Shown piece after piece: positions 6,873 through 18,230 of a stretch of DNA of 53,414 nucleotides. A program made the translations under genes and the position numbers. Below the pieces are notes generated by a model that saw only the letters and a list, made by a program, of their open reading frames with translations, did not search any database and was not told the DNA's origin. Within the stretch, counting starts at the first letter, position 1, and each line of letters starts with the position of its first letter. The DNA lies in IMG/VR virus record IMGVR_UViG_3300032117_002338, positions 1 through 53,414 of that record; one strand, given 5' to 3'. This DNA is from a virus. Its lineage: Duplodnaviria; Caudoviricetes.

Positions 6873-7343
6873 ATGGATAAGCTTTTCTCAGTCGCTGGCG
6901 TTTCAACGCTTGATGGTGTCGTTAAGGCTCGCTTCGCGAAGGACATGTCCCGCGCCAAGGTCCTCGAGAAGAACGGCCACAAGGCGGTGCGCTTGATCGA
7001 GCTTCCCAAGGCGATGGCCAAGGATGAGGCGCTTGCGCATCTCCGCTCGCATGCTGCGTTCCAGGATGCTGCCGCGCAGTCAGCTTTCGCAGGCGAGGGC
7101 AAGGTTGAGGCCAAGCCCAACAAGATGGCGCAGGCCATGGCACACGCTGCGGTTAAGTCGGTGGCTGCCAAGGCTGCACCAGCCAGCAAGGCCGTTGATG
7201 TCAAGTCTAAGAACCTCGAGACCATGAAGAAGGTCTCCGCCAAGATGGCAGAGCGCGAGCAGGAGGAAAAGGAGGCCGAATACGAGCTCTCCAAGGAAGA
7301 GCTGGGCCTCGGTGTTGACACATACCTCAAGGCCCGTGCGTAA
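6873..7343 (+). CDS. Ala/Lys-rich hypothetical early protein
   Basis: AGGAGA RBS, strong codon bias, 156 aa. Confidence 0.8.
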   Translation: MDKLFSVAGVSTLDGVVKARFAKDMSRAKVLEKNGHKAVRLIELPKAMAKDEALAHLRSHAAFQDAAAQSAFAGEGKVEAKPNKMAQAMAHAAVKSVAAKAAPASKAVDVKSKNLETMKKVSAKMAEREQEEKEAEYELSKEELGLGVDTYLKARA

Positions 7344-7355
7344 CCCAGGCGCGTT

Positions 7356-7509
7356 TGACCCTTGAAGTTCAGGGAGGATGGAAACATCCTCCCTTCCCCA
7401 CCTCGGCAACATGGTCGCAGCATTGTCCGACTTGACATCACTGCAGGTTAGGGCTAGGCTGAACCCATCGACCGCAGCGACCCTTGGCAGTTTAGGAACT
7501 TCAAGGTCA
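7356..7509 (+). ncRNA. Candidate structured RNA (unknown class)
   Basis: TGACCCTTGAAGTTC / GAACTTCAAGGTCA closing stem; inner 10-bp GAAA hairpin; GGTCGC/GCGACC stem. Confidence 0.45.
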
Positions 7510-7523
7510 GCTAAAGATTTCGG

Positions 7524-7551
7524 TTGACACGAGCGCTATAGGTGCTATCGT
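7524..7551 (+). promoter_or_regulatory. Early sigma70-type promoter
   Basis: GTTGACA-16 nt-TATCGT with TGC. Confidence 0.7.
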
Positions 7552-7579
7552 GCCGCATATATGATGCGGAGATGGCACC

Positions 7580-8155
7580 ATGCAGTTTTCAGTACCCCTG
7601 TTGATCTATGAGATGCCCGCGTTGGAGGATTACAAGGCGCTGTATCCCAAGCATTTCTATGCCAAGCTTGTGCACAAGATCGCGACCAAGGTGCACTGGC
7701 GCACGATGCTCAGCGAGGCGCAGAACCATCGCTGCTGCTGGTGCGGCATCAAGGTCACGGAGCTGCGCGATCGTCCGGATTCAGCCACCATCGAGCATGT
7801 GGTACCCAAGAGCCACGGCGGGGCGGATCATCCCGATAACTTCGCCATCGCTTGCCACTCCTGCAACGGGAACCGCGGCGTCAAGAGCGTGGAGGATTTC
7901 ATGCTGCAGAAACGGTCAGCCAACGATAAAGCATCCCTCCGCAGGGAGCTCATGAACAAATTCGAGGTCAAGTCCAGTAACAATGCCGGCCGTGCACGCC
8001 TCAAACGCAAGTTGGATCTCAACCAAGCCAGGAACGCGGTGCTCACCGGCCTGCCCAACACATTCGAACCCGGCAGCAGGGCATATATAACGCATACCTG
8101 CGCTACAGCGCGTTGTCCAAGGAATCGCTGTGCCATGGGGATCCCCGCACGGTGA
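7580..8155 (+). CDS. HNH endonuclease (possible C-terminal frameshift)
   Basis: CCWC...TIEHVVPKSHGG...NFAIACHSCNGNRG. Confidence 0.88.
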   Translation: MQFSVPLLIYEMPALEDYKALYPKHFYAKLVHKIATKVHWRTMLSEAQNHRCCWCGIKVTELRDRPDSATIEHVVPKSHGGADHPDNFAIACHSCNGNRGVKSVEDFMLQKRSANDKASLRRELMNKFEVKSSNNAGRARLKRKLDLNQARNAVLTGLPNTFEPGSRAYITHTCATARCPRNRCAMGIPAR

Positions 8156-8203
8156 CCGCCGGATCGATCGGTGAGGATTCCCAGATCGCAGCGTGATCTT
8201 CGG

Positions 8204-8231
8204 TTGACAAACCAGCTGATGATGCTATTGT
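8204..8231 (+). promoter_or_regulatory. Early sigma70-type promoter
   Basis: GTTGACA-16 nt-TATTGT with TGC. Confidence 0.7.
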
Positions 8232-8258
8232 AGCGCATAGGCAACGAGGAGCACACAG

Positions 8259-8726
8259 ATGCAACACAACGTTGAAACCATACGAGAACTGCTCGCAACC
8301 AATGACCGCGCGGTGGGGCGTGCGCTGATCGTATTGCGCAACCGCCAGACCTCTGATGAGCAGGTCAGCGAGACCACCAAGCATCAGAACGGTCGCGGCT
8401 TCCGCCCTGCCCATGCACGCATGGGGACCAGCATGGCCAACTTCTTCGAGGCACGCGGCTACCTCACCTCCAAGCAGGCCAGCTACTGGCGCACCGCGAT
8501 GGCGGACGGCAAGAGCCGCATCGGTATCTACGCACGCCAGCTGTTGGAGGAGGTCGAGGCCAAGCAACGGCCCAAGGCGGCGGTCGAGGATGTGGGTAAC
8601 CACGAGGAGGCCATGATGGCCGAGCGCGAGATGCAGCAGATGGAGGCTGAACACGATCGCGAGCAGTCGCGCTTGGAGGAGATCCGCAAGCACCTCGCAC
8701 GCGATGTCATGGAGATCGCGGCATGA
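8259..8726 (+). CDS. Hypothetical early protein
   Basis: GAGGAG RBS, 155 aa, phage-like codon usage. Confidence 0.8.
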   Translation: MQHNVETIRELLATNDRAVGRALIVLRNRQTSDEQVSETTKHQNGRGFRPAHARMGTSMANFFEARGYLTSKQASYWRTAMADGKSRIGIYARQLLEEVEAKQRPKAAVEDVGNHEEAMMAEREMQQMEAEHDREQSRLEEIRKHLARDVMEIAA

Positions 8727-8799
8727 TAGAGATTTCAGGTTGACGGCTGATTCAGAGATGCTACTATGCATCATAGGCGATGAGAAACGGGAGGGTTAC

Positions 8800-8856
8800 A
8801 TGGACGATATGATCATGGACGGCGACGACGAGGGTCTCATCCTCGATGAATATTGA
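8800..8856 (+). CDS. 18 aa acidic micro-peptide MDDMIMDGDDEGLILDEY
   Basis: Own promoter-like motif (TTGACG 8740..TACTAT 8767) and GGGAGG RBS. Confidence 0.45.
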   Translation: MDDMIMDGDDEGLILDEY

Positions 8857-8882
8857 GGCGAAGATTTATTTTTAACCCGATA

Positions 8883-8913
8883 TTGACAGCTTTATTAACA
8901 GGCTGTATAAATA
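8883..8913 (+). promoter_or_regulatory. Dual promoter: sigma70 TTGACA-17-TATAAA overlapping T4-type late TATAAATA
   Basis: TTGACA 8883-8888; TATAAATA 8906-8913. Confidence 0.8.
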
Positions 8914-8947
8914 GATCGAACTTGAAGTTAAAGGTTTAGAGGAACAT

Positions 8948-9037
8948 ATGCAACACCTGAACAAAGACATGTTTAATATGGGTTTGGAACACATCGTCTG
9001 GTCGTATCAAGCGGCCAAGCGAGGAGGGTTTGCATGA
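8948..9037 (+). CDS. Putative leader peptide (29 aa) MQHLNKDMFNMGLEHIVWSYQAAKRGGFA
   Basis: AGAGGA RBS; lies between promoter and terminator; last codons form the antiterminator strand. Confidence 0.7.
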   Translation: MQHLNKDMFNMGLEHIVWSYQAAKRGGFA

Positions 9038-9104
9038 TGCTGTGATCAAGTATCACATCATTGGTTTGCTAAACCCTCGAAGGTAACTTCGGGGGTTTTT
9101 CTTT
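9024..9104 (+). promoter_or_regulatory. Putative attenuator (antiterminator/terminator pair)
   Basis: GAGGGTTT 9024-9031 complementary to AAACCCTC 9071-9078, which is also the 5' arm of the terminator. Confidence 0.65.
9071..9104 (+). terminator. Intrinsic terminator upstream of tRNA array
   Basis: AAACCCTCGAAG-GTAA-CTTCGGGGGTTT then TTCTTT. Confidence 0.85.
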
Positions 9105-9263
9105 GGGTTTACATGACAGGCCGCTGCTCCCTCGGCATAAGAGCAGCCCCCGACTAGTACGTGGTCCCGAACGGGACGTACAAGTGGTTTCAGCGGGGAG
9201 CATATGCGATGAGTATGTCTCATCACGGTCACATCGAGAGGTGTGCCTCTGATGACACGTATT

Positions 9264-9354
9264 GGGTCGTGCAATAAGGACAGGCTGGTGCCGTCGCCGC
9301 GCTGTAAACGCGGTCCCTTGAGGCAAGAGGTTCGATTCCGTCCACGACCCACCA
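9264..9354 (+). tRNA. tRNA-Tyr(GTA), atypical (enlarged D region, imperfect T stem)
   Basis: GGGTCGT/ACGACCC-A-CCA; CCGCG-CTGTAAA-CGCGG; long variable arm. Confidence 0.75.
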
Positions 9355-9401
9355 ATACAAGCAAGGGCAAGGTGATAAACCTGTAAGTCCCATGATATGA
9401 C

Positions 9402-9477
9402 GGGGCCTTAGCTCAGCTGGAAGAGCGTCTGCCTTGCACGCAGAAGGTCATCGGTTCGATCCCGATAGGCTCCACCA
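9402..9477 (+). tRNA. tRNA-Ala(TGC)
   Basis: Canonical cloverleaf, G3:U70, CCA. Confidence 0.95.
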
Positions 9478-9483
9478 AGACAC

Positions 9484-9558
9484 GCGATGTTCGACTATCG
9501 GTAAGGTCGCTAGCCTTTCAAGCTGGAAAGACGGGTTCGATTCCCGTACATCGCACCA
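9484..9558 (+). tRNA. tRNA-Glu(TTC)
   Basis: CTAGC-CTTTCAA-GCTGG; GGTTCGATTCC; CCA. Confidence 0.92.
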
Positions 9559-9560
9559 AT

Positions 9561-9636
9561 GCATAGCGAGCAAGTCTAGTGATTGCGCCGGTCTGAAAAA
9601 CCGGAGAACCAGGTGCGATCCCTGGGCTATGCACCA
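9561..9636 (+). tRNA. tRNA-Phe(GAA)
   Basis: CCGGT-CTGAAAA-ACCGG; GCATAGC/GCTATGC-A-CCA. Confidence 0.88.
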
Positions 9637-9637
9637 T

Positions 9638-9922
9638 TCATATATGCGGATCATCCAGCCAGCGTATGATGGCGAACTGCAGGTACAGCTTGGCATCCTC
9701 GGGTGTCATGTTGAACCATTCGCCCTTGAGCCGCTTGTGGTTGAGCTCCGCATGCAGCTTGCGTTCGAGGAGCCGCACGCGACCCTCTGGAACGGGCTCT
9801 GCGTGATGTATCCTGAGCCTGTTGGGATTGCCTGTCTGGAGAGTCGCGAGGCGTTTGGCAACATCCTTGCTGAATCCGATCTTCTGATAGCTCTCATCGG
9901 TGCCGATCACATATAGGAACAT
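9638..9922 (-). CDS. GIY-YIG/T5orf172-family protein
   Basis: FLYVIG...KIGFSKDVAKRLATLQTGNP...LKGEWF; TAAGTA 4 nt before ATG. Confidence 0.88.
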   Translation of the reverse strand: MFLYVIGTDESYQKIGFSKDVAKRLATLQTGNPNRLRIHHAEPVPEGRVRLLERKLHAELNHKRLKGEWFNMTPEDAKLYLQFAIIRWLDDPHI

Positions 9923-10020
9923 GTGATACTTATGACCGGCATGCATGGTTGATCCGGTGATTTTCCAAGGTTATCCGATCCGACGGTGGCTTAAATAAAG
10001 CTAGACATTTCGGGAGAAAT

Positions 10021-10785
10021 ATGATGATCGACCTTGATGCGGAGAAGGCCGCGGTGGACACGGTGAGGCGCTGCCAGAGGAACTGGGACCTGACCAATGG
10101 CATACCGGAGGAGCACATACAGCACTGGATATACATGGCCACGCATTCCCCTTCCAAGCAGGATGAGGGATACTTCAACCTATACGTGCTGACCGACAGG
10201 GAGCTGATAGATCGCATGGTCAAGCACACCTGGGGGCACACCATACCCGTGATACCAAAGGTGGTCAGGGGATTGGCCAGGAATCCGCAGATGGGAGCCA
10301 GCGCCTACTTCCTGTTCGCCAGCAAGGATCCGTCAACCGTCAGAACCTGCAAGCCCAACGGCGAGTGGGGCGATCCAACATACTATGGCCGAACCGTGCA
10401 GAACAAGTACACATCCATCGGATTGGCCATGGGCATGATAGCGCTATCGGCCGCCAACATGGGATATTCCACCGGGTTCAACAAGTGCCACGGCCAGGAC
10501 AACTCCCCCGATCACGGCATATGGCGCGAGACGCTGGGGTTGACCGAGGGAGAGAACATCGAGTTCGGGCTTGGCATAGGACACGGGCAGGAGGGTCGTG
10601 CCCACTACGAGACAGACGAGACCGAATTCCTTGTGGGTGTGCATCCCAGCCCAATGCATTCCGTGCACGATCAGAAGATACCATGGAATGGCGTCGAATA
10701 CGATAACCCCGTGAAGGCCATAGGGTACACCAATTTCAGCGAGATGTACAGAGACACCAAGGACATAAAGGTGTTTAGGTTCTGA
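10021..10785 (+). CDS. Nitroreductase-fold protein; paralog of 39590..40288
   Basis: RRCQRNWDL, HSPSKQ, IGLAMGMIALSAANMGYSTG pattern. Confidence 0.75.
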   Translation: MMIDLDAEKAAVDTVRRCQRNWDLTNGIPEEHIQHWIYMATHSPSKQDEGYFNLYVLTDRELIDRMVKHTWGHTIPVIPKVVRGLARNPQMGASAYFLFASKDPSTVRTCKPNGEWGDPTYYGRTVQNKYTSIGLAMGMIALSAANMGYSTGFNKCHGQDNSPDHGIWRETLGLTEGENIEFGLGIGHGQEGRAHYETDETEFLVGVHPSPMHSVHDQKIPWNGVEYDNPVKAIGYTNFSEMYRDTKDIKVFRF

Positions 10786-10803
10786 TCACCGGTGCGGGTT
10801 GAT

Positions 10804-11823
10804 TCATGGGATGCGTATGCCGTTGGCCACGCGGGCAGCCTCCAGCCTGTTCCCCAGATCCGCGATGGTGGGTTCAAGATCGGGAAGCATGCCGCGATCG
10901 ACCAGCGGTAGCACAGATCCAAGCACGGCTAGGTTCCGGTATGAATATGAATGTATCTCAGCCTTGTCTATGCGCGACAGCACGTCTGATCCGCAGTGGT
11001 CTAGGTCGAAGAAGAACCTATCGTAGTCGACGGTGGTGATGCGCGATGCGCAGTTGATCAGAGGCTTGGCATACCTGTAGTATGCGTTCCAGTCTGACAG
11101 CCAGGCGAACGATTCCAAATCTAGGTAACCGTAGAACAACCTGCCTGTGGCATACCTCTTGAAATCATCGACGGAATGCATGTCTCCGCCATTGTTGATG
11201 CAATGCGTGTGCCACTCCCATGAGAGTGGGGTGAACCTGATGTCGATGCCACCTATATCGCTTTCAAGCTGCTTGACCATGGACGAATAATCCTTGAAGC
11301 TTATCTCGCGAACCGTGCAGCAGTTAGACAGCAACTTGGCTATCAGCACCGGCTTGCCGTTGTAATCCCTGTTCAAGGAATCCTTGATCTCCAGCAGGGA
11401 GCAGGTTAACCTGCTCTGGGCATCGTTGGTCTCTATGCAGATCAGCTCGTCGGTGTGGTACGAATACACCGATTGGGTTATCAGGGGCATCTGATGTCCC
11501 ATGGACACCCTCAAACCGGTGGAGGTACCGCTGGTGAGCCTGCCGACGTCTCCCTCGTGCTTGGCGACCATGTAGCAGGCGTCTAGATCCAGGATTGATT
11601 CGCCGTCAGATCCCATGGTCACTATGTCCAATGACAGCTTGTGCCTGCGATCTACGATGTACTCATTGATCGAATCGTAGCGAACGCCATGGCCGGTGAG
11701 CTGGTATCCGATGAAATTACCCCCGGCTCCTGGTGGGAAGCATATGGTCGTGTCGAACTCATAGGCGCGATGTTTGAAATCCCTGAACAGGGGATGATCT
11801 TGCTTTAGGATGCCATCTATCAT
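10804..11823 (-). CDS. Hypothetical protein with P-loop/sulfotransferase-like N-terminal loop; paralog of 11926..12957
   Basis: TICFPPGAGGNFIGY; start MIDGILKQDHP 4 nt after TAAGTA. Confidence 0.75.
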   Translation of the reverse strand: MIDGILKQDHPLFRDFKHRAYEFDTTICFPPGAGGNFIGYQLTGHGVRYDSINEYIVDRRHKLSLDIVTMGSDGESILDLDACYMVAKHEGDVGRLTSGTSTGLRVSMGHQMPLITQSVYSYHTDELICIETNDAQSRLTCSLLEIKDSLNRDYNGKPVLIAKLLSNCCTVREISFKDYSSMVKQLESDIGGIDIRFTPLSWEWHTHCINNGGDMHSVDDFKRYATGRLFYGYLDLESFAWLSDWNAYYRYAKPLINCASRITTVDYDRFFFDLDHCGSDVLSRIDKAEIHSYSYRNLAVLGSVLPLVDRGMLPDLEPTIADLGNRLEAARVANGIRIP

Positions 11824-11847
11824 ACAGTACTTATGCGAGTGTTTAAT

Positions 11848-11923
11848 GCTCCCATCGTCTAGTGGCCTAGGACACCAGCCTCTCACGTTGGGTACACCGG
11901 TTCGAATCCGGTTGGGAGCGCCA
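11848..11923 (+). tRNA. tRNA-Glu(CTC)
   Basis: CCAGC-CTCTCAC-GTTGG; canonical T arm; CCA. Confidence 0.95.
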
Positions 11924-11925
11924 AC

Positions 11926-12957
11926 TCAGATCGAATCTATGCCATGTGATATCTTGGCATGGGCCAATCTATCCCTTATGCTTGATATCTCCGTCCGCAA
12001 CCGCAGCGCAGCATCATCCTCCACCAACGGTAGCACAGATTCAAGCATGGCCATGTTACTAGCGGAGTAGGAGTGTATGTCTCTCCTATCTATGCGGGAC
12101 AGAACGTTGGATCCGCAGTGGTCCAGATCAAAGAACAGGCTGTCATAGTCAACGGTGATCAACCTCGATGCGCAGGTGATGGATGCCTTGGACAGTTGGT
12201 AGGTTTCGCCGTCCCTGGAATGCTCGGCAGGCGGATCCTCGGCCATGTAATCTCCCAGCAGGTTGTTGGTCACGTATCTCCTGAGGCTGGGTATGGACAT
12301 CCTGTCAACGCCGTGGTTGACGCAGTTGGTGTACCACATCCAGAACATCGGAGTGTGCCCTATCTCCCAGGTGCGAGGTATCCCATGCCCGTCCAGATGC
12401 GCGTTGATGTTGTCCACCACATCGTCATAATCCCGCATCGCCACATCAGGTGGCATCGGGCATCTGTAGAGCATGTCGCTTATGGTTATGGGCCTAGCCT
12501 CCCTGATATCGGTCATGAACATCTTGTAGCATAGCAACGCACCTATCAGCCTGCATCGTTCGGATGGCATCTCGATGGTGATCAGCTCTTCGGTGTGATA
12601 GCCGTATATGCGTTGAGTCAACACGGGCAACCTGTGTCCCATGGATAGGCGAATGCCTGTGTTTGCCGCGCCGGAACCGCCTAGGGGGTTGTATCCATTG
12701 GCCATTATGGCATGGCATGCATCAAGGTCTATCACCGGATCGAGGTCATGGTTTATCAATGTCTCCAGGCTTAGCCAATCTATGTTGGCTGCCTTGTATT
12801 CGTTTATACCCTCCCATACCGCCCCTCCACCGGTGAGGCGGTATCCGAGGAAGTTGCCGCCGGTCCCTGGTGGGAAGCATATGGTGGCATCAAAGCTGGC
12901 TGACATGCCTTTGAAATCCCTGAACAGGGGGTGATCTAGGCTTAGGATCTCATACAT
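11926..12957 (-). CDS. Hypothetical protein with P-loop/sulfotransferase-like N-terminal loop; paralog of 10804..11823
   Basis: TICFPPGTGGNFLGY; shared FFDLDHCGSxVLSRID block. Confidence 0.75.
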   Translation of the reverse strand: MYEILSLDHPLFRDFKGMSASFDATICFPPGTGGNFLGYRLTGGGAVWEGINEYKAANIDWLSLETLINHDLDPVIDLDACHAIMANGYNPLGGSGAANTGIRLSMGHRLPVLTQRIYGYHTEELITIEMPSERCRLIGALLCYKMFMTDIREARPITISDMLYRCPMPPDVAMRDYDDVVDNINAHLDGHGIPRTWEIGHTPMFWMWYTNCVNHGVDRMSIPSLRRYVTNNLLGDYMAEDPPAEHSRDGETYQLSKASITCASRLITVDYDSLFFDLDHCGSNVLSRIDRRDIHSYSASNMAMLESVLPLVEDDAALRLRTEISSIRDRLAHAKISHGIDSI

Positions 12958-12986
12958 CGTGGGATCATCTCTGATATGGTTAAATT

Positions 12987-13060
12987 GGGCCGTTGGTTAA
13001 ACGGGATAACTTCGCCTCGGCAGGGCGACATCGGGGGTTCGACTCCCCCACGGTCCACCA
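12987..13060 (+). tRNA. tRNA-Ala(GGC) with C33
   Basis: G3:U70; TCGCC-TCGGCAG-GGCGA; CCA. Confidence 0.88.
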
Positions 13061-13067
13061 AATACAT

Positions 13068-13142
13068 GGGTGCGTGGCTCAGTGGTAGAGCACCTGCTCG
13101 ACACGCAGGAGGTTGATGGTTCGATCCCATCCGCACCCACCA
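13068..13142 (+). tRNA. tRNA-Val(GAC) with C33
   Basis: CCTGC-TCGACAC-GCAGG; CCA. Confidence 0.9.
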
Positions 13143-13147
13143 CGGCA

Positions 13148-13900
13148 TCAGTTGAACAGGTTGCGAAGGGCCCTGCCCACCAGCAGCTTGACCCTGCTGG
13201 CGAAACCAGGCTTATCCCGATCGATGCGCTGCAGCTCCTGATAGAATGAATAGGCGCGGGTGAGCAGCCTGTTGTACTGCTTCTGTCCCTTGCGGGTATC
13301 CCACTTGAACATGCGTGGCGACAGCTGATGCTTGGAGAATATCTCCTTTATCTCATGCTCCAGGAACCTGGGATCGATCTTGGCCTTGGACATGTCCATC
13401 AATGCCTGGCTGAACCTGGCGTTGATCTCCTCGTGGTATCTGACGTACTCGTCGTACTGGTCGCCGGTGACATCATCGCCCATCTGAGGCCTGGGCGGCA
13501 ACGCCTTGGTCCTGCTCTTGTAGTAGTCCAGGGCATGACGCAGCTCATGCACCAGCGTGCTCTCCATCTTGGAGCGCACGGTCCACTTGGCCTTGCCGAT
13601 CAGCCCGGCCACGTTGAGACCAATGGCGCTGTTTGCGGTATCATATTCACCTCGATGCCGCGGATTGTCCCTGTCGTTGAACATGTAGAATGAGGTCCCG
13701 TCCAACATGGAATGCACCACCGGAGATATGACGCTGGGAGAACGTTTGCCTGATATGTCCTCTAGGTCCTCGAGTGTGAGCGGACCCCTCCTCGGTTTCT
13801 TGGAGAGGATGCCGGCCACGTAGGACGCTATGTCCTGCAGCTCTCGCTCCTCTTGCACGGTCTCGTTTAGGATGTGGTCTGTGATCTCTGATATGCGCAT
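13148..13900 (-). CDS. HExxH zincin-like metalloprotein, late, possible head-internal protein
   Basis: LVHELRHALD...HEEINARF; starts MRISEITDHILNE 4 nt after TAAATA. Confidence 0.72.
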   Translation of the reverse strand: MRISEITDHILNETVQEERELQDIASYVAGILSKKPRRGPLTLEDLEDISGKRSPSVISPVVHSMLDGTSFYMFNDRDNPRHRGEYDTANSAIGLNVAGLIGKAKWTVRSKMESTLVHELRHALDYYKSRTKALPPRPQMGDDVTGDQYDEYVRYHEEINARFSQALMDMSKAKIDPRFLEHEIKEIFSKHQLSPRMFKWDTRKGQKQYNRLLTRAYSFYQELQRIDRDKPGFASRVKLLVGRALRNLFN

Positions 13901-13910
13901 CAAATATTTA

Positions 13911-13987
13911 CCCTGTCTAGTGTTAGTGGCAAAGCACGCGAGTTTGTGGCACTCGTAGGGCTGGTTCGAATCCAGCGGCAGGGACCA
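13911..13987 (+). tRNA. tRNA-His(GTG), no encoded G-1, A73
   Basis: CGAGT-TTGTGGC-ACTCG; CCCTGTC/GGCAGGG-A-CCA. Confidence 0.9.
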
Positions 13988-13997
13988 AAGATAACGG

Positions 13998-14025
13998 TTG
14001 ACGCATCCCACAGAGATGCTATTGT
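13998..14025 (+). promoter_or_regulatory. Internal sigma70-type promoter in tRNA region
   Basis: GTTGACG-16 nt-TATTGT with TGC. Confidence 0.65.
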
Positions 14026-14110
14026 AACCATGTAGACGCTGTTTGACATGGTTAATGACGACGATTGCTTCGGCAGGGCTGCATCGCAGCATACCCAAAA
14101 GGTAATAGCT

Positions 14111-14180
14111 GTAGGTTGGTCTTAACGGAAAAGGCGCCCGCTTTCCGGCGGGAGATGCGGGTTCGAATCCCAGCACCACG
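14111..14180 (+). pseudogene. Degenerate tRNA-like element (Gly/Glu-like loop, no CCA)
   Basis: CCCGC-TTTCCG-GCGGG 6-nt loop; GGGTTCGAATCCC T arm; poor acceptor stem. Confidence 0.5.
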
Positions 14181-14203
14181 ATGTGGCCCTGCCGAGGCAT
14201 ACG

Positions 14204-14360
14204 CTGTCGTTTCGCTTGCACAGGAGGCTGATGGTTGGGAGTAATTGACCCAAACCATGGATGGGTAGTCAGGTGAGAAGGTTCACCGAGAAGGTGTAAC
14301 CGAGGTTGGGTTCGAGTCCCATGATCCATGCTTGCTGTGCAAGCGTGACGGCAACGACAG
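14204..14360 (+). ncRNA. Candidate structured RNA with embedded T-arm
   Basis: 8-bp and 11-bp perfect end-to-end stems; internal TGGG-TTCGAGT-CCCA. Confidence 0.55.
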
Positions 14361-14367
14361 AGACGAC

Positions 14368-14442
14368 GGACTGGTAGCTCAAAGGAGGAGCAGGCCCCTC
14401 ATAAGGGCAAGGTTGAGATATCGTAATTCTCCCGGTCCACCA
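14368..14442 (+). tRNA. tRNA(CAT), Ile2 or Met
   Basis: GCCC-CTCATAA-GGGC; GGACTGG/CCGGTCC-A-CCA; atypical T loop ATCGTAA. Confidence 0.8.
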
Positions 14443-14494
14443 TTCGCCGGATTGCTAATCAGCGGTTTCTAGATCTGCTGAGGTGTTTACCGGT

Positions 14495-14525
14495 AGAGGA
14501 TCCCGACACCTCTATAAAAACGCGG
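14495..14525 (+). ncRNA. preQ1-I-like pseudoknot, copy 1
   Basis: AGAGG-ATCCCGACA-CCTCT-ATAAAAACG-CGG. Confidence 0.55.
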
Positions 14526-14534
14526 AGGAATCAT

Positions 14535-14610
14535 TCCCTGGTAGCTCAACTGGTAGAGCACCGCACTGTTAATGCGGGGGTTGCTGGATCGTACCCAGCC
14601 CTGGGAGCCA
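14535..14610 (+). tRNA. tRNA-Asn(GTT)
   Basis: CCGCA-CTGTTAA-TGCGG; G73, CCA. Confidence 0.92.
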
Positions 14611-14707
14611 ACATGCGCATTGCGACGGCATCACCGTCGCGTTAGCGGAGGGAACCACTCGGCTGTTGGACGCGAGTCCGGCAGGAGCCCTCCGCTGTTG
14701 ACACAAT

Positions 14708-14784
14708 GGACCCTTAGCTCAATTGGTTAGAGCAACCGCCTCTTAAGCGGTAGGTTCCCGGTTCGATCCCGGGAGGGTCTACCA
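14708..14784 (+). tRNA. tRNA-Lys(CTT)
   Basis: ACCGC-CTCTTAA-GCGGT; canonical. Confidence 0.95.
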
Positions 14785-14790
14785 ACACAT

Positions 14791-14865
14791 TGCCCGTTCG
14801 TCTAATCGGTAGGACACCTGACTCTGACTCAGGCAGTCGTGGTTCGAGTCCATGACGGGCAGCCA
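14791..14865 (+). tRNA. tRNA-Gln(CTG)
   Basis: CCTGA-CTCTGAC-TCAGG; canonical. Confidence 0.95.
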
Positions 14866-14870
14866 ACAAC

Positions 14871-14947
14871 GCCCCACTAGCCCAACAGGTAGAGGCGCCT
14901 GCTTCAGGTGCAGGAGGGTTCCCGTTCGAATCGGGAGTGGGGCACCA
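14871..14947 (+). tRNA. tRNA-Leu(CAG), short variable loop
   Basis: CCTGC-TTCAGGT-GCAGG; A73; CCA. Confidence 0.88.
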
Positions 14948-14972
14948 AATCTGACCAGTGCGGAGGTGATGT

Positions 14973-15512
14973 ATGATAGAGAAGCTGACCGATAGGGCTG
15001 GCAGGGCGCTGTACCTCATGCATCTGCTGAATCTCAACCGCGAGGATCGCATGCTGCGGTTCGCCGGCAACATGGATGGCGATGTCATAGTGGGCTACGT
15101 CAACAACATACCCGACACCGATCACCTGCTGGGTTATAGGTACGATGGGGAGCTGGTGGGGTTCGCCCACATCGGCTACATGGGAGATGGCAAGGCCGAG
15201 ATAGGCTTCAGCGTCGATTCGGAGGCCCGAGGCAAGGGCATAGGCGAGAGGCTGTTCAAGTACTGCGTGGACTTCTGCAAGCTCAAGGGGGTTGACACCA
15301 TATACACCTTCTGCCTGCCAACCAACGTCGCGGTGACGAGGATAGTGTCAAAGTCAGGCCTGAGCATCAGCAAGGATGAGCCGGGCACGGCATTGGCCAT
15401 AGATCAGCATCCAGACGTGTTGGCCTACTACACCGTCCTGGGGAACGAATACATGAGGAACATATACAACGTGAACCGCCACTTCATGCGGCCGTTGATG
15501 TTCGATCGATGA
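14973..15512 (+). CDS. GNAT-family acetyltransferase
   Basis: AEIGFSVDSEARGKGIGERLF acetyl-CoA motif; GGAGGTG RBS. Confidence 0.88.
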   Translation: MIEKLTDRAGRALYLMHLLNLNREDRMLRFAGNMDGDVIVGYVNNIPDTDHLLGYRYDGELVGFAHIGYMGDGKAEIGFSVDSEARGKGIGERLFKYCVDFCKLKGVDTIYTFCLPTNVAVTRIVSKSGLSISKDEPGTALAIDQHPDVLAYYTVLGNEYMRNIYNVNRHFMRPLMFDR

Positions 15513-16431
15513 ACCCATCCCTGGCCAAGCGCGACATCCTGGACACAGGCATGTCCATGCCAAGCTGGTGGCGTATGTGCTGCACCGGTATGTATATGGA
15601 TCCCAGATGGGGGAACAGAGCACCAAGCTTTTTCTCCATCGGCTTCCGCCAATGGTTGATGTTCTCATACCCCTCGTACTTGGGGCGGACGACCATGTCG
15701 GGCCACAGGCTGTGCAGGACCAATATCTTCTCGGGGCTGGTTGCGGTTGGCATGGCGGTCATGAAGTAGTCGGGATTGCGCAGCATGCATGCTATGAGAT
15801 CGATCTCTTGGTATGCCGCGAACAACTCAGGCGTGTCACTGAAGAAGTATGGGTAATGCACGGCGTGGTTGCGATGCAACCACTGCAATGGTGGTATGAG
15901 GTTGGTGTTCTTCTTCATGTGTATGCGGCGGTTGATGGTGGTGAATCCCTGCACTCCGCCACCGATGATGGCACAACCTCCGCTATCCTCGACGTGCTCC
16001 ATCAGAGCCAAGACCAGATATCTGTAGACACCGTTTGATTCGTACCCGTCGGCGCAGAAGCGACGGATGGCATCCTCCAGATAGGGGATGGGATCCACCT
16101 CCAACAGCTCATGGGCTATGCCCCGCTCGGTGCAGAAACGCTTGGCGTATCCTATGTCATGCTCGTTCGTGCCATCGGAGAAGCTGATGCTGAGCGCGGA
16201 GAAAGGTATGCCTTGGTCGTGGAAGGCCCTGGCGACGACCTCGCTGTCTATGCCGCCGCTCATGCACACTACCATGGGGCGTTTGGTTGATTCGGCTATG
16301 CGCCGTGCCTCCAGATATATCTCCTCCTTCCATGGCAGCAAAGGTCGGGTGATGGATCTAAAGCTGATGCCAAACCTATCCGCTATCGCAGCGGGGTTCC
16401 TGCCATCGAATCTGTAATCAAAGCATATCAT
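15484..16431 (-). CDS. PP-loop (adenine nucleotide alpha-hydrolase) ATPase-like protein
   Basis: VVCMSGGIDSEVV PP-loop motif. Confidence 0.75.
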   Translation of the reverse strand: MICFDYRFDGRNPAAIADRFGISFRSITRPLLPWKEEIYLEARRIAESTKRPMVVCMSGGIDSEVVARAFHDQGIPFSALSISFSDGTNEHDIGYAKRFCTERGIAHELLEVDPIPYLEDAIRRFCADGYESNGVYRYLVLALMEHVEDSGGCAIIGGGVQGFTTINRRIHMKKNTNLIPPLQWLHRNHAVHYPYFFSDTPELFAAYQEIDLIACMLRNPDYFMTAMPTATSPEKILVLHSLWPDMVVRPKYEGYENINHWRKPMEKKLGALFPHLGSIYIPVQHIRHQLGMDMPVSRMSRLARDGFIDRTSTAA

Positions 16432-16476
16432 GACAGCAGTATGCCAGCATGGCATGCATCAGGTCAAATAGTCAAA

Positions 16477-16553
16477 GCCGCCGTGGCCCAACTGGCAGAG
16501 GCGCTAGGTCGAGAGCCTAGATGGTGTTGGTTCAAATCCAACCGGCGGCACCA
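16477..16553 (+). tRNA. tRNA-Leu(GAG) with C33, short variable loop
   Basis: CTAGG-TCGAGAG-CCTAG; CCA. Confidence 0.88.
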
Positions 16554-16559
16554 ATCATC

Positions 16560-16637
16560 GCCCTCATGGCCCAACTGGCAAGAGGCGCCGGGTTCAAACT
16601 CCGGATGTTGTAAGTTCGAATCTTACTGAGGGCACCA
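16560..16637 (+). tRNA. tRNA-Leu(CAA), short variable loop
   Basis: CCGGG-TTCAAAC-TCCGG; CCA. Confidence 0.9.
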
Positions 16638-16646
16638 AGTTTACAT

Positions 16647-16720
16647 AGGTCGTAAGTGTTATGGTAGCACGCTGAGCTCCAACCTCAGAAGCGCGGGTTC
16701 GACTCCTGCACGACCTGCCA
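16647..16720 (+). tRNA. tRNA-Trp(CCA)
   Basis: CTGAG-CTCCAAC-CTCAG; G73; CCA. Confidence 0.92.
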
Positions 16721-16731
16721 TAAATACCAGC

Positions 16732-16899
16732 ATGAAGATATCAGAGATACTCAAGCCGATGACCATCATGGGGGCCACTGACAGCCACGGGCATGTCAAC
16801 AGGGCCAAGGCTGAGCGCATCCCAGACCCTCGAGGTTGGTTCGCCAAGAACAAGCGAGCCTTGAGGAAGAATCGCAAACCAACCGGCTCCGTTAGGTAA
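16732..16899 (+). CDS. 55 aa basic late protein (MKISEIL...)
   Basis: ATG 5 nt after TAAATA; K/R-rich C-terminus; not in supplied ORF track. Confidence 0.65.
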   Translation: MKISEILKPMTIMGATDSHGHVNRAKAERIPDPRGWFAKNKRALRKNRKPTGSVR

Positions 16900-16975
16900 G
16901 TGTTATACTAGCTGATTCGTAACCAGCACGTGAACGCTGGCGATCATCAATGTTGCCATTGGGCCAAATCAATGG

Positions 16976-17003
16976 TTGACACCGACAGCAGAGATGCTAT
17001 CGT
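16976..17003 (+). promoter_or_regulatory. Internal sigma70-type promoter
   Basis: GTTGACA-16 nt-TATCGT with TGC. Confidence 0.65.
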
Positions 17004-17040
17004 AGATGAGTTGAGAGACACAGTTGAAAGGTTTCTTTAC

Positions 17041-17137
17041 CGGTTTCGGTCGTCCGGTCCACCGCCGGCAAGCATGGTAATGCCCGATTGAGTTGCGGAC
17101 GCTGCCAAGCCCAAGGGTGAGCATGTGGATGAAACCG
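17041..17137 (+). ncRNA. Candidate structured RNA
   Basis: CGGTTTC/GAAACCG and GTCCAC/GTGGAT nested stems just after promoter. Confidence 0.4.
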
Positions 17138-17146
17138 AGCAGTTTA

Positions 17147-17221
17147 GGGCCGTTGGTGATAACGGGAGCACGACGCGTTTGCACCGCGTAGGCCGGGGTT
17201 CGACTCCCCGACGGTCCACCA
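17147..17221 (+). tRNA. tRNA-Ala(TGC), second copy
   Basis: ACGCG-TTTGCAC-CGCGT; G3:U70; CCA. Confidence 0.9.
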
Positions 17222-17225
17222 ATTT

Positions 17226-17301
17226 GCGCATGTCGATCTCTGGTGAGATCACCTGTCTGTCTAACAGGTCTAGGCGAGTTCGATCCTCGTCATGCGCGCC
17301 A
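17226..17301 (+). tRNA. tRNA-Asp(GTC)
   Basis: CCTGT-CTGTCTA-ACAGG; G73; CCA. Confidence 0.9.
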
Positions 17302-17326
17302 AATTTAACCAGAGAGGACTACGAGA

Positions 17327-17599
17327 ATGTCTAGCGACGAAGATAACGAAGGCAAGATGAAGGTGGTGTTCGCACCCGGGTCCTTTGATGGGTTCGAGGG
17401 GACGCAAGAGGAGCTCGACGCGCTCGTGGCGGAGATCATGGGCATGTTGGAGAGCGGCGATCTGCTGGAGAAGGCTGTGGTCCTTGACGAGGCATCGTTC
17501 GATGAGCTGCCCGATGACGTCAAGGAGAGCATCATGCGAGATCTCGCCAACATCAACGAGGACGGCGACATCGACGTCAAACCTCGCCTGCTCAACTGA
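17327..17599 (+). CDS. Highly acidic hypothetical protein
   Basis: GAGGA RBS; 90 aa D/E-rich. Confidence 0.78.
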   Translation: MSSDEDNEGKMKVVFAPGSFDGFEGTQEELDALVAEIMGMLESGDLLEKAVVLDEASFDELPDDVKESIMRDLANINEDGDIDVKPRLLN

Positions 17600-17605
17600 C
17601 ACAGA

Positions 17606-17679
17606 TGGCGTGTAGCTCAATGGGAGAGCATTGGTCCGATAAACCAAAGACGAAGGTTCGATTCCTTCCTCGCCAACCA
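17606..17679 (+). tRNA. tRNA-Ile(GAT) with C33
   Basis: TTGGT-CCGATAA-ACCAA; CCA. Confidence 0.88.
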
Positions 17680-17686
17680 ACATCAT

Positions 17687-17762
17687 TCGGGGATAGTTCA
17701 ACTGGAAGAACGCTGGCCTTTGAAGCCGGATGCTGGTGGTTCGAACCCATCTCCCCGAACCA
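17687..17762 (+). tRNA. tRNA-Gln(TTG)
   Basis: CTGGC-CTTTGAA-GCCGG; CCA. Confidence 0.9.
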
Positions 17763-17765
17763 AAT

Positions 17766-17849
17766 GGACCAGTAGCGTAAAGGCAGGCAAGTGCCGCCAC
17801 CGGATTTTTAACCCGGCCGCAGGGGGAGCGTTACCTCACTGGTCCTCCA
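17766..17849 (+). tRNA. tRNA-Lys(TTT), atypical (enlarged D region, non-canonical T loop)
   Basis: GGACCAG/CTGGTCC-T-CCA; CCGGA-TTTTTAA-CCCGG. Confidence 0.65.
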
Positions 17850-17851
17850 AT

Positions 17852-17930
17852 GCCCACGTAGGCCAACAGGTTAGAGTCACCGGACTTAAAATCCGGACAG
17901 TGTCGGGTTCGAATCCCACCGTGGGCACCA
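17852..17930 (+). tRNA. tRNA-Leu(TAA), short variable loop
   Basis: CCGGA-CTTAAAA-TCCGG; CCA. Confidence 0.9.
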
Positions 17931-18018
17931 GTCAGATCGTGGAAAACACGTCAAATACCGGCATATGGTTGACATATGCTGGATCGCTGCTATATACTAA
18001 TGACACGATGAGAATTTC

Positions 18019-18221: not shown

Positions 18222-18230
18222 TGCGAAATT

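What the first reader, a model, noticed from the sequence alone, without database searches (positions are those of the whole stretch)
8883..9104. Candidate 'codon-sampler' attenuator controlling the phage tRNA array
Seen: a strong promoter, an RBS-led 29-codon ORF (8948-9037), then an intrinsic terminator (9071-9104) directly ahead of the tRNA region. The last leader codons contain GAGGGTTT (9024-9031), complementary to the terminator 5' arm AAACCCTC (9071-9078), and the intervening ATGATG..GTGAT/ATCACATCAT hairpin extends that alternative helix, so terminator and antiterminator are mutually exclusive. The leader uses 24 different codons for 17 amino acids; each can be read (directly or by wobble) by a tRNA in this window; Pro and Thr, the only amino acids with no tRNA found here, are absent from it; its only Arg codon is CGA, matching the only Arg anticodon (UCG). 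Established: in amino-acid attenuators (trp, his) a ribosome reaching the leader end masks the antiterminator strand, while stalling permits read-through; phage tRNAs can offset host tRNA loss. Inference: instead of a run of one codon, this leader would sense failure of almost any tRNA (starvation or anticodon-nuclease defence) and switch on replacement tRNAs. Caveats: stalls in the last ~8 codons would mask the antiterminator; Cys is absent from the leader although tRNA-Cys exists; internal promoters mean only part of the array need be controlled.
Basis: partly seen in the sequence, partly recalled or inferred. Interest (0 to 1): 0.95.

Follow-up and report, generated by a model that had tools for sequence, protein, structure and literature searches.

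The report
Attenuator-like leader before phage tRNA genes
A short, conserved promoter–mini-gene–terminator unit at the start of a giant phage's tRNA gene block can fold in two competing ways, so it probably acts as a switch on how much transcription runs into the tRNA genes, but there is no sound evidence that it samples all codons.

Summary
The unit is kept in 2 other phage contigs (L040, G002), always at the 5' edge of the tRNA genes. A diverged second copy in G002 sits before another tRNA cluster. In all 3 copies the RNA has the four-region layout of a trp-type attenuator: the start-codon block pairs with the ORF end (1:2), the ORF end pairs with the terminator's 5' arm (2:3), and the terminator forms (3:4). 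The stop codon lies inside the antiterminator strand. The 2:3 pairing is stronger than in shuffles (P 0.007, <0.003, 0.01). The codon-sampler claims mostly fail. AAA cannot be read by the window's only tRNA-Lys. A tRNA-Thr does exist at 42437. Codon diversity is ordinary (P 0.17). The Shine-Dalgarno is kept in only 1 of 3 copies. Related cassettes do carry leaders rich in codons for the tRNAs downstream: Thr/Arg/Cys in G002, and Ser/Arg in three huge-phage records. Best reading: a ribosome-dependent attenuator, confidence 0.45. No RNA data exist.

The parts
8740..8767 (+). Promoter-like site (TTGACG-16-TACTAT) of the upstream acidic mini-ORF. Its transcripts would also run into the terminator at 9071.
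   Evidence: The counterpart in G002 is TTGACT-16-TATTAT.
8800..8856 (+). 18-codon acidic mini-ORF (MDDMIMDGDDEGLILDEY) with a Shine-Dalgarno (GGGAGGG). It serves as an internal control for what a real coding signature looks like here.
   Evidence: The Shine-Dalgarno is kept in 3 of 3 copies, and synonymous changes occur at conserved residues (GAG/GAA, GGT/GGC, GAT/GAC).
8883..8911 (+). Sigma-70-type promoter, TTGACA-17-TATAAA. TGTATAAATA is invariant in all 4 cassettes.
   Evidence: alignments A1 and A6.
8933..8942 (+). 5'UTR GGTTTAG, complementary to CTAAACC 9069-9075, followed by Shine-Dalgarno GAGG.
   Evidence: In G002 the 5'UTR GGGUUUAGU is the predicted partner of the terminator arm. 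GAGG becomes GAGA in strain contigs of runs X3 and X8, GAAG in L040, and is absent in G002.
8948..9037 (+). Leader ORF of 29 codons (MQHLNKDMFNMGLEHIVWSYQAAKRGGFA).
   Evidence: The frame is open in 3 of 3 homologues (29, 32 and 30 codons). It was called as a gene only in the window's record.
8948..8958 (+). Region 1: the start-codon block ATGCAACACCT. It pairs with region 2 before region 3 has been transcribed.
   Evidence: present in the lowest-energy fold in 3 of 3, worth -6.9, -6.0 and -5.0 kcal/mol. Also in the consensus fold.
8995..9021 (+). Hairpin A inside the ORF (TGGTCGT / GCGGCCA). The 5' arm is invariant and the 3' arm varies but keeps pairing.
   Evidence: 7 pairs, of which 3 vary on one side only; 95% of cells are paired.
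9024..9036 (+). Region 2: GAGGGTTTGCAT. It is the 5' strand of the antiterminator, spans the Gly-Gly codons, and overlaps the stop codon at 9035-9037.
9034..9062 (+). Hairpin B, which stacks on the antiterminator helix. The stop codon lies in its 5' arm in 3 of 3 homologues.
   Evidence: 10 pairs, 93% of cells paired.
9066..9078 (+). Region 3: TGCTAAACCCTC, the flank plus the lower 5' arm of the terminator. It is the partner of region 2.
   Evidence: 23 of 24 cells paired, with one A-U to G-C compensatory pair (columns 108-162).
9071..9107 (+). Intrinsic terminator (12-bp stem, GTAA loop) and T tract.
   Evidence: Compensatory changes occur in the upper stem in G002.
9116..9200 (+). Structured RNA of no known family, lying directly after the terminator. 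It would be the first thing reached by read-through transcripts.
   Evidence: A C-G to U-A change between the window and L040 keeps the outer helix.
9265..9636 (+). A tRNA-like gene (GUA) followed by tRNA-Ala(UGC), tRNA-Glu(UUC) and tRNA-Phe(GAA). These are the only tRNAs that could depend on read-through; a minus-strand gene follows at 9638.
   Evidence: No consensus promoter lies between 9104 and 9636.

Best explanation
Positions 8883-9107 are a self-contained leader cassette at the 5' edge of the tRNA gene region. It most likely works as a ribosome-dependent transcription attenuator of the trp-leader type.

Proposed mechanism. Host RNA polymerase starts at the strong promoter. The leader RNA can fold in two ways. 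In one, region 1 (the start-codon block) pairs with region 2 (the ORF end), and the terminator (3:4) forms. In the other, region 2 pairs with region 3 (the terminator's 5' arm), and the terminator cannot form. A ribosome that reaches the stop codon, which lies inside the antiterminator strand, covers region 2 and transcription stops at about 9104. A ribosome held on or near region 1, or lagging behind the polymerase, leaves 2:3 free to form. Transcription then continues into the structured RNA at 9116-9200, the tRNA-like gene and tRNA-Ala/Glu/Phe.

Shown: the anatomy, its conservation, the alternative pairings, and its position before tRNA genes.
Inferred: that the ORF is translated, and that ribosome position decides the fold.
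Not shown: that it senses 'any' tRNA.
For: 1. Conservation. Homologues lie in L040 and G002. In 3 of 3 the order is acidic mini-ORF, cassette, then tRNA-Glu/Phe. In G002 the cassette precedes the first of 37 tRNA matches.
2. The 2:3 pairing. In folds of the unfinished transcript, the terminator arm's upstream pairing is worth -9.5, -12.3 and -13.0 kcal/mol; 0.007, 0.000 and 0.010 of 300 shuffles do as well. In the window and L040 the partner is region 2. In G002's whole-transcript fold the partner is the 5'UTR, and region 2 pairs with the arm only in local folds. Shuffling region 2 alone gives P = 0.004, 0.004 and 0.11. 23 of 24 cells are paired. At columns 108-162 an A-U pair becomes G-C, while the same column within the terminator goes from U.G to C.A. 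L040 rewrote TTTGCA to TATAGCA and still keeps an 11-bp helix.
3. The 1:2 pairing appears in 3 of 3 before region 3 has been made.
4. A ribosome mask at the stop codon cuts the arm's pairing gain to -4.7 (window) and -2.6 (L040). Masks at codons 10 or 20 do not.
5. A diverged second cassette in G002 (covariance model R1, 27.7 bits, E 3.5e-6 to 7.6e-6) shares the promoter, the ACGGGGGT strand and the terminator, but has an unrelated 22-codon ORF. This is what one expects if the act of translation matters rather than the peptide. 9 of its 21 codons after the start are Thr, Arg or Cys, and tRNA-Thr, tRNA-Arg and tRNA-Cys follow it (P = 0.015).
6. Analogous units elsewhere. L052 and GenBank LR756502.1 and LR745206.1 carry Ser/Arg-rich leaders (P < 0.0002, 0.0024, 0.0002), a terminator, then tRNA-Arg and tRNA-Ser genes. 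R1 aligns end to end with two of them (27.4 and 20.2 bits). L070 has a 31-codon leader and terminator before 32 tRNAs.
7. No consensus promoter lies between the terminator and the tRNAs in 3 of 3.
Against: - The Shine-Dalgarno core is present in only 1 of 3 homologues. It is GAGA in the strain contigs of 2 of the 4 runs laid. The mini-ORF next door keeps its Shine-Dalgarno in 3 of 3.
- The ORF shows no peptide-level selection between the window and G002: 14 non-synonymous against 2 synonymous codon changes. 10 of 12 conserved degenerate residues keep the identical codon, against 40 of 99 in the neighbouring gene (P about 0.004 by my binomial). That fits a purely RNA-level function as well as it fits codon-level selection.
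- There is no run of cognate codons in the window (7 of 28; P = 0.15).
- In G002 the arm is predicted to pair with the 5'UTR whatever ribosome mask is applied, except one at initiation. There the terminator has only 0.16 probability at equilibrium.
- Covariation with three sequences is not significant: 172 of 500 shuffles reach the observed value.
- All folds are equilibrium predictions.
- L052 and L070 were found with patterns that fix the terminator or antiterminator sequence.
Confidence: 0.45

Rival explanations
1. It is a terminator/antiterminator switch that does not use the ribosome. A protein, a small RNA, a tRNA or simply folding kinetics would decide between 2:3 and 3:4, and the ORF would be incidental.
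For: The alternative helices are conserved while the Shine-Dalgarno is not. Invariant blocks such as TTTAATATGG.TTTGGAAC show no synonymous change and are only partly explained by the predicted helices, so they could be binding sites.
Against: The frame stays open from region 1 to region 2 in 3 of 3 homologues, in the second G002 cassette and in the analogous units, and the stop codon is always inside the antiterminator strand. Leaders of related cassettes are enriched for codons cognate to the downstream tRNAs, which only translation would explain. No Rfam riboswitch or T-box match appears at E up to 10.
Confidence: 0.2
2. It is a stand-alone small RNA of about 185 nt, made from its own strong promoter and ended by its own terminator, that acts in trans. 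The alternative pairings would be part of its fold or accidental.
For: A strong promoter is followed directly by a strong terminator. The conservation is at nucleotide level. The fold is better than shuffles (z = -3.86). Attenuator RNAs can also act in trans, as rnTrpL does (PMC6614838; I saw only the search listing and the start of the abstract).
Against: A simple small RNA has no reason to keep a strand complementary to its own terminator arm, yet that strand is kept through sequence change in 3 of 3. Complements of the conserved blocks in the window and in G002 are at chance level. The position directly before tRNA genes is kept in 3 of 3, and again for the second G002 cassette.
Confidence: 0.2
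3. It is an ordinary small protein gene with an ordinary terminator that ends the upstream early operon (6873-8856) and insulates it from the tRNA region.
For: All upstream genes are on the + strand. The ORF has a good Shine-Dalgarno in the window and was called as a gene in the source record. This is the only strong + strand terminator in 7000-26000.
Against: There are 14 non-synonymous against 2 synonymous codon changes. Amino-acid identity is 52%, against 70% for the neighbouring gene. The Shine-Dalgarno is lost in relatives. The peptide's C-terminus was rewritten in L040 while RNA pairing was kept. The L040 and G002 ORFs are not in the protein collection.
Confidence: 0.1

Closest known systems
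Leader-peptide (ribosome-mediated) attenuators of amino-acid operons: trp, his, leu, thr, phe (known from textbooks; recalled, apart from search listings)
   Same: A promoter-proximal short ORF. Regions 1:2, 2:3 and 3:4 with mutually exclusive antiterminator and terminator. The stop codon is placed so that a finishing ribosome covers region 2. The peptide sequence itself is not conserved.
   Different: The genes downstream are tRNA and other RNA genes of a phage, not biosynthetic genes. The window's leader has no run of regulatory codons. Region 1 is the start codon itself, so the whole ORF lies between regions 1 and 2. The Shine-Dalgarno is not conserved.
pheS-pheT operon attenuator, a leader with Phe codons that controls a tRNA synthetase operon (recalled from memory; not checked in any call)
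   Same: Attenuation is applied to a component of the decoding apparatus, sensed through decoding of cognate codons. This is the logic of the G002 second cassette and the L052-type units.
   Different: It is cellular and controls a protein-coding operon. Here the products would be the tRNAs themselves.
T-box riboswitches
   Same: A terminator/antiterminator choice is tied to tRNA status.
   Different: T-boxes bind uncharged tRNA directly and have a conserved T-box sequence and specifier loop. No T-box match appears at E up to 10, and T-boxes precede synthetase or amino-acid genes.
rnTrpL, an attenuator-derived small RNA of Sinorhizobium (PMC6614838 and PMC7968998; I saw only search listings and the starts of abstracts)
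   Same: A terminated leader transcript that could also serve as a trans-acting RNA. This would account for nucleotide-level conservation outside the helices.
   Different: No target was found here, and there is no sequence relation.
Rfam His_leader (RF00514) and rnk_leader (RF01771)
   Same: These are the best Rfam matches to 8978-9107, and both are leader/terminator elements.
   Different: The scores are 21.6 and 24.2 bits against gathering scores of 49 and 50. The aligned part is essentially the terminator. The unit is not a member of either family.

Membership tests
Ribosome-mediated leader-peptide attenuator | A short ORF starting near the 5' end of the transcript | tested here: met
   The ORF has 29, 32 and 30 codons in 3 of 3 homologues, 22 codons in the second G002 cassette, and starts about 30 nt after the predicted transcription start.
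Ribosome-mediated leader-peptide attenuator | The leader ORF is translated (ribosome binding site kept) | tested here: inconclusive
   GAGG is present only in the window. It is GAAG in L040, absent in G002, and GAGA in the contigs of runs X3 and X8. An AAGG about 13 nt upstream of the ATG is kept in all three. No RNA or ribosome data exist.
Ribosome-mediated leader-peptide attenuator | An intrinsic terminator between the leader and the controlled genes | tested here: met
   It is kept in 3 of 3, with compensatory changes.
Ribosome-mediated leader-peptide attenuator | An antiterminator that excludes the terminator | tested here: met
   The pairing gain exceeds that of shuffles in 3 of 3, and 23 of 24 cells are paired.
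Ribosome-mediated leader-peptide attenuator | An anti-antiterminator (1:2) that forms first | tested here: met
   present in the lowest-energy fold of the partial transcript in 3 of 3. The pairs do not vary, so covariation gives no support either way.
Ribosome-mediated leader-peptide attenuator | A cluster of regulatory codons cognate to what is controlled | tested here: not met
   In the window 7 of 28 codons are cognate to the downstream tRNAs (P = 0.15). L040 gives P = 0.72 and G002's primary copy P = 0.64. The feature is met in the second G002 cassette (P = 0.015) and in L052, L061 and L062 (P = 0.0024 or less).
Ribosome-mediated leader-peptide attenuator | Read-through responds to ribosome position | not testable with these tools
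   Only equilibrium folds with masked stretches were possible. These support it in the window and L040 but not in G002.
Rfam His_leader / rnk_leader | Score at or above the curated gathering score | tested here: not met
   21.6 against 49 bits, and 24.2 against 50 bits.
T-box riboswitch | A match to the T-box covariance model | tested here: not met
   No match is listed at E up to 10 for 8880-9400.
Trans-acting small RNA | Own promoter and terminator, plus conserved single-stranded blocks with targets | tested here: inconclusive
   A promoter and a terminator are present. Complements of the conserved blocks in the window and G002 are at chance level. Host targets could not be searched because the host is unknown.

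The most novel reading that the evidence does not exclude
The window's cassette is the generalist member of an undescribed class of ribosome-sensing attenuators that gate phage tRNA genes by decoding capacity.
- Specialist members precede small clusters and carry runs of codons cognate to the tRNAs that follow: Ser/Arg in records of 635-642 kb, and Thr/Arg/Cys in G002.
- Generalist members sit at the head of large arrays and carry unusually varied leaders. L070 has 19 amino acids in 31 codons (P = 0.011) and G002 has 18 in 30 (P = 0.06). In this reading, slow decoding of many different codons, through starvation or tRNA-cleaving defence, switches the array on.
Probability: 0.15. Interest if true: 0.9.

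Novelty: new variant of a known kind. Interest (0 to 1): 0.72.

Why it matters
Large phages carry dozens of tRNA genes, yet I know of no described mechanism for how their expression is set. Six full-text searches found no paper describing an attenuator in front of phage tRNA genes.

If these cassettes work as their anatomy suggests, the phage couples tRNA supply to the actual performance of translation in the infected cell. That would bear on codon-usage compensation and on escape from tRNA-cleaving host defences.

The units are small (about 220 nt) and use a host-type promoter and an intrinsic terminator, so the idea can be tested directly with reporter fusions. The Ser/Arg and Thr/Arg/Cys leaders make a sharp prediction: starving the cell for the cognate amino acid, or depleting the cognate tRNA, should raise read-through.

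Tried and rejected
Homologue searches with no useful result:
- The exact terminator in viral contigs gave 0 hits.
- TTTAATATGGNTTTGGAAC found G002 plus 1 chance hit inside a coding region.
- The promoter-to-start pattern found G002 plus 3 chance hits.
- nhmmer over the 36 loci then held found only the known copies.
- GenBank phages matched only the tRNAs.
- Bacterial and archaeal genomes gave 0 hits.
- Model R1 over 22 related records gave 0 new records at E of 1 or less. That includes 4 complete genomes, one of them the 518-kb relative G003. The only gain was the second G002 cassette.

Synteny through the upstream 155-aa gene failed. All 3 loci read downstream (L002, L003, L004) differ there, even L002 at 95% identity.

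G003 has a non-homologous unit of promoter, 47-codon ORF and terminator (L014). Its arm pairing gain is -9.4 (P = 0.015), but it overlaps the terminator by only about 3 nt, so I do not count it.

The isolated tRNA-Thr(GGU) genes in the window and in G002 simply follow a Sir2-like gene and have no leader.

The structured element at 9116-9200 has no Rfam family, no second copy and no exact core match in viral contigs or genomes.

Complements of the conserved blocks occur at chance level.

ARAGORN at relaxed thresholds gave many false calls. I used its calls only where Rfam confirmed them.

Covariation counts on three sequences are not significant.

No RNA holder was listed among the sequencing runs. 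Only DNA contigs could be laid.

I requested no supplementary files.
Full report
WHAT THE WINDOW IS. The window is a complete IMG/VR record of 53,414 bp, estimated to be about 13% of a genome. It is therefore a fragment of a very large phage. G+C content is 55.6%. ARAGORN finds 30 tRNA genes, all on the + strand. At gathering scores Rfam reports 29 matches, all to the tRNA model. They include one at 42437-42507 and two partial ones at 25523-25578 and 26230-26304. DNA of this phage or close strains occurs in lake and freshwater metagenome runs. No RNA run was listed.

THE OBSERVATION.
- TTGACA (8883-8888), 17 nt, then TATAAA (8906-8911).
- GAGG (8939-8942), 5 nt before ATG 8948.
- A 29-codon ORF ending at TGA 9035-9037.
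- A hairpin at 9034-9062.
- A 12-bp terminator at 9071-9098 followed by a T tract.
- GAGGGTTT (9024-9031) is the exact complement of AAACCCTC (9071-9078).
- The full transcript folds better than shuffles (z = -3.86).
- When the transcript is cut before the terminator's 3' arm, the lowest-energy fold pairs GAGGGUUUGCA with UGC-U-AAACCCUC, stacked on the hairpin.
- Allowing the terminator arm to pair upstream gains -9.5 kcal/mol, against -3.7 +/- 2.1 in 300 dinucleotide shuffles (fraction as good: 0.007).

The structural observation is therefore real and is not what chance gives.

RELATIVES. The gene upstream (8259-8726, phrog_21015, function unknown) has relatives in 10 viral contigs. In all 3 loci read downstream (L002, L003, L004) the neighbourhood differs. 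A BLAST of the region against those whole records found the unit in G002, a 199,865-bp contig (E 4.6e-15, 69% identity). A three-block pattern scan of metagenome contigs found a third copy, L040, on a 1,842-bp contig.

All three share the same order: an acidic 18-codon mini-ORF with its own promoter, then the cassette, then tRNA-Glu(UUC) and tRNA-Phe. In the window and L040 a structured stretch with a CATAAG or TATAAG loop follows the cassette; G002 shares only a short motif there. In G002 the cassette lies just before the first of 37 tRNA matches. No further copies were found in viral contigs, GenBank phages, or bacterial and archaeal genomes.

FOUR-REGION ARCHITECTURE.
- Before region 3 is transcribed, the start-codon block AUGCAACACC (region 1) pairs with the ORF end (region 2) in 3 of 3 homologues.
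- Once region 3 exists, the 2:3 helix is the lowest-energy fold in the window and L040.
- In G002, CGGGGGU pairs with ACCCCCG in local folds. In folds of the whole transcript the 5'UTR GGGUUUAGU takes the arm instead.
- Arm pairing gains are -9.5, -12.3 and -13.0 kcal/mol. The fraction of shuffles that do as well is 0.007, 0.000 and 0.010.
- Shuffling only region 2 gives 0.004, 0.004 and 0.11.
- On the alignment, 23 of 24 cells of the 2:3 helix pair. One pair changes on both sides, A-U to G-C at columns 108-162. In the terminator helix the same column 162 goes from U.G to an unpaired C.A in G002.
- L040 has rewritten about 9 bases of region 2 and hairpin B, and still keeps 1:2, 2:3 and hairpin B.
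- With only three sequences the covariation statistics are not significant: 172 of 500 shuffles reach the observed value.
- The stop codon lies in the 5' strand of hairpin B in 3 of 3.
- Masking a ribosome footprint at the stop codon lowers the arm's pairing gain to -4.7 (window) and -2.6 (L040). Masks at codon 10 or 20 leave it at -11.6 to -12.8. In G002 only a mask at initiation has an effect.

IS THE ORF TRANSLATED? This remains open.

Against translation:
- GAGG is present only in the window. It is GAAG in L040, absent in G002, and GAGA in the strain contigs of runs X3 and X8 (2 of the 4 runs laid).
- The neighbouring mini-ORF keeps its Shine-Dalgarno in 3 of 3 and shows synonymous changes.
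- Between the window and G002 the leader has 14 non-synonymous and 2 synonymous codon changes. 10 of 12 conserved degenerate residues keep the very same codon, against 40 of 99 in the gene next door (binomial P about 0.004, my arithmetic). Both synonymous changes lie in the Gly-Gly codons that form the antiterminator strand.
- This pattern means the constraint is on nucleotides or on codons, not on the peptide.

For translation:
- The frame is open from region 1 to region 2 in 3 of 3.
- It is also open in a diverged second cassette whose ORF is unrelated (next section).

THE SECOND G002 CASSETTE AND ANALOGOUS UNITS. A covariance model of the unit (R1) found a second cassette in G002 at 137,919-138,044 (27.7 bits, E 3.5e-6 to 7.6e-6). 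It shares TTGACA...TGTATAAATA, the strand ACGGGGGT and the terminator AAACCCTCGAA. Its ORF is different: MMTRPMTQPTTCPRCGNGGSVT. Downstream lie a GIY-YIG-type endonuclease ORF (my reading of the sequence), then tRNA-Thr(UGU), tRNA-Arg(ACG) and tRNA-Cys(GCA). Nine of the 21 codons after the start are Thr, Arg or Cys (P = 0.015 against composition-matched open frames). Its arm pairing gain is -5.3 (P = 0.053).

A scan for that terminator stem gave 9 loci. One is G002 itself. Seven are ordinary gene-end terminators. One, L052, is a 25-codon ORF (MKTTIKNTSSSSSRSSKLSEVRLYS) followed by a terminator and, about 10 nt later, tRNA-Arg(ACG) and three tRNA-Ser genes. The same unit occurs in GenBank LR756502.1 (642,428 bp) and LR745206.1 (634,780 bp). 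Their leaders are reshuffled but still rich in Ser and Arg: 11, 10 and 11 cognate codons (P < 0.0002, 0.0024, 0.0002). They also keep a helix between the early ORF and the ORF end, and a terminator with compensatory changes. The ORF-end strand GGUUCGA or GAUUCGA changes together with the terminator arm UCGAAC or UCGAAUC, as read directly from the sequences. R1 aligns end to end with two of them (27.4 and 20.2 bits).

A last scan, which fixed the antiterminator strand and the terminator arm, gave 11 loci. Two are G002 and 8 are chance places without tRNAs. One, L070, has TTGCCA-17-TATAGT, a 31-codon ORF, region 1 (AAACCCGCC), region 2 (CGGGGGUU), region 3 (AAACCCCCG), a terminator, and then 32 tRNA genes.

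L052 and L070 were found with patterns that fix part of their sequence. Their similarity in those parts is therefore by construction. Their position directly before tRNA genes, and their leader composition, are not.

THE CODON-SAMPLER CLAIM.
- The counts (24 codons, 17 amino acids) are right. However, they are matched or exceeded by 8.8% and 8.5% of random 29-codon gene segments, and for the amino-acid count by 17% of composition-matched open frames.
- 8.4% of gene segments lack both Pro and Thr.
- AAA cannot be read by the only tRNA-Lys (CUU).
- TAT and CGA depend on an atypical tRNA-like gene and on a split tRNA gene.
- A tRNA-Thr(GGU) does exist.
- G002's leader contains Thr, and G002 has three tRNA-Thr genes and a tRNA-Pro. 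That fits the idea, but with so many tRNAs almost any ORF would fit.
- The leader is not enriched for codons cognate to the tRNAs right after it (P = 0.15).
- Some support remains. Leaders at the head of large arrays are varied (G002: 18 of 30, P = 0.06; L070: 19 of 31, P = 0.011). Leaders before small clusters are narrow and cognate. This is suggestive, but it was seen after the fact, and the start of the L070 ORF was my choice.

SCOPE OF CONTROL. No consensus promoter lies between the terminator and the first tRNAs in 3 of 3 homologues. The scan cannot see non-consensus or phage-specific promoters. A minus-strand T5orf172/MUG113 gene follows at 9638-9946. Near-consensus promoters recur from about 11.6 kb onward. 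The cassette can therefore govern at most 9116-9636.

VERDICT. The attenuator anatomy is conserved and recurs before other phage tRNA clusters. Ribosome dependence is plausible but unproven, and the Shine-Dalgarno data count against it. The 'samples any codon' reading is not supported for this leader, though it is not excluded.

My odds:
- Ribosome-dependent attenuator: 0.45
- Switch that does not use the ribosome: 0.20
- Stand-alone small RNA: 0.20
- Small protein gene with an insulating terminator: 0.10
- Other: 0.05

I found no description of such units in six literature searches. Of the papers listed there I saw only the search listings and the starts of abstracts.

Noticed in passing
window 9265-9353; L015 2690-2782: A tRNA-like gene with anticodon loop CTGTAAA (GUA), an 8-9 bp acceptor stem, a 6-bp D stem and a long variable arm. 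Its best Rfam match is tRNA-Sec at 29.5 bits, below the cut-off of 47, and default ARAGORN misses it. Between the window and G002 the acceptor, D and anticodon stems all change in a compensatory way, so the RNA is real. G002 also has a normal tRNA-Tyr(GUA). It could be an unusual Tyr-codon reader with a different identity.
   Followed up: partly
window 9116-9200: A structured RNA directly after the terminator: a hairpin with a CATAAG loop, then a long hairpin closed by CCCCCG/CGGGG. A C-G to U-A change in L040 keeps the closing helix. Positions 9116-9191 are matched, with about 10-11 differences over 76 nt, by longer and much deeper contigs in two lake or sea runs (X10 and X8), in a different flanking context. 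It has no Rfam family and no exact core match in viral contigs or genomes.
   Followed up: partly
window 25523-26304: tRNA-Arg(UCG) appears to be split. A 5' part (25523-25578) and a 3' part (26230-26304) have matching acceptor halves. They are separated by a 211-codon ORF (25595-26230) with an HNH motif. This looks like an endonuclease insertion or an intron in a tRNA gene.
   Followed up: partly
window 42437-42507: tRNA-Thr(GGU) with an unusual T loop (GGCGGTA). Default ARAGORN misses it, but Rfam scores it at 50.1 bits. It lies right after a Sir2-like gene, as its counterpart does in G002 (L042 11641).
   Followed up: yes
window 8800-8856: An 18-codon, very acidic mini-ORF (MDDMIMDGDDEGLILDEY) with its own promoter and Shine-Dalgarno. 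It is kept in L040 and G002 with synonymous changes, so it is probably a real micro-protein of unknown role, always next to the cassette.
   Followed up: partly
L052 10634-10776 (minus strand); L061 827-970; L062 about 735-880: Ser/Arg-rich 24-25 codon leaders plus a terminator, directly upstream of tRNA-Arg(ACG) and several tRNA-Ser genes, in three huge-phage records (two are GenBank records of 635 and 642 kb). This is the clearest case of a cognate-codon leader before tRNA genes seen here.
   Followed up: partly
L052 10381-10468 (minus strand): A type-II tRNA-like gene lying between tRNA-Ser genes. ARAGORN cannot assign its anticodon loop, which appears to have 8 nt around UUGA.
   Followed up: no
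L051 about 1795-2380 (G002 138.2-138.8 kb): A GIY-YIG-type endonuclease ORF sits between the second cassette's terminator and the tRNA-Thr/Arg/Cys cluster. The window has HNH (7580-8155) and T5orf172 (9638-9946) genes at comparable places. The tRNA region is a mosaic of mobile endonuclease genes.
   Followed up: no
window 8930-9110: GGTTT occurs six times within about 180 nt (8933, 8981, 9026, 9063, 9093, 9105). Only two of these copies are kept in G002 and four in L040. Several are the strands that can pair with AAACC of the terminator arm.
   Followed up: no
L014 1490-1790 (G003, a 518-kb complete relative): A promoter 85% identical over 33 nt to the window's promoter drives a 47-codon ORF with a CxxC motif. 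The ORF ends in a G-rich strand and is followed by a terminator. The unit lies between tRNA-Met and tRNA-Leu genes. It is a possible distant analogue of the cassette.
   Followed up: partly
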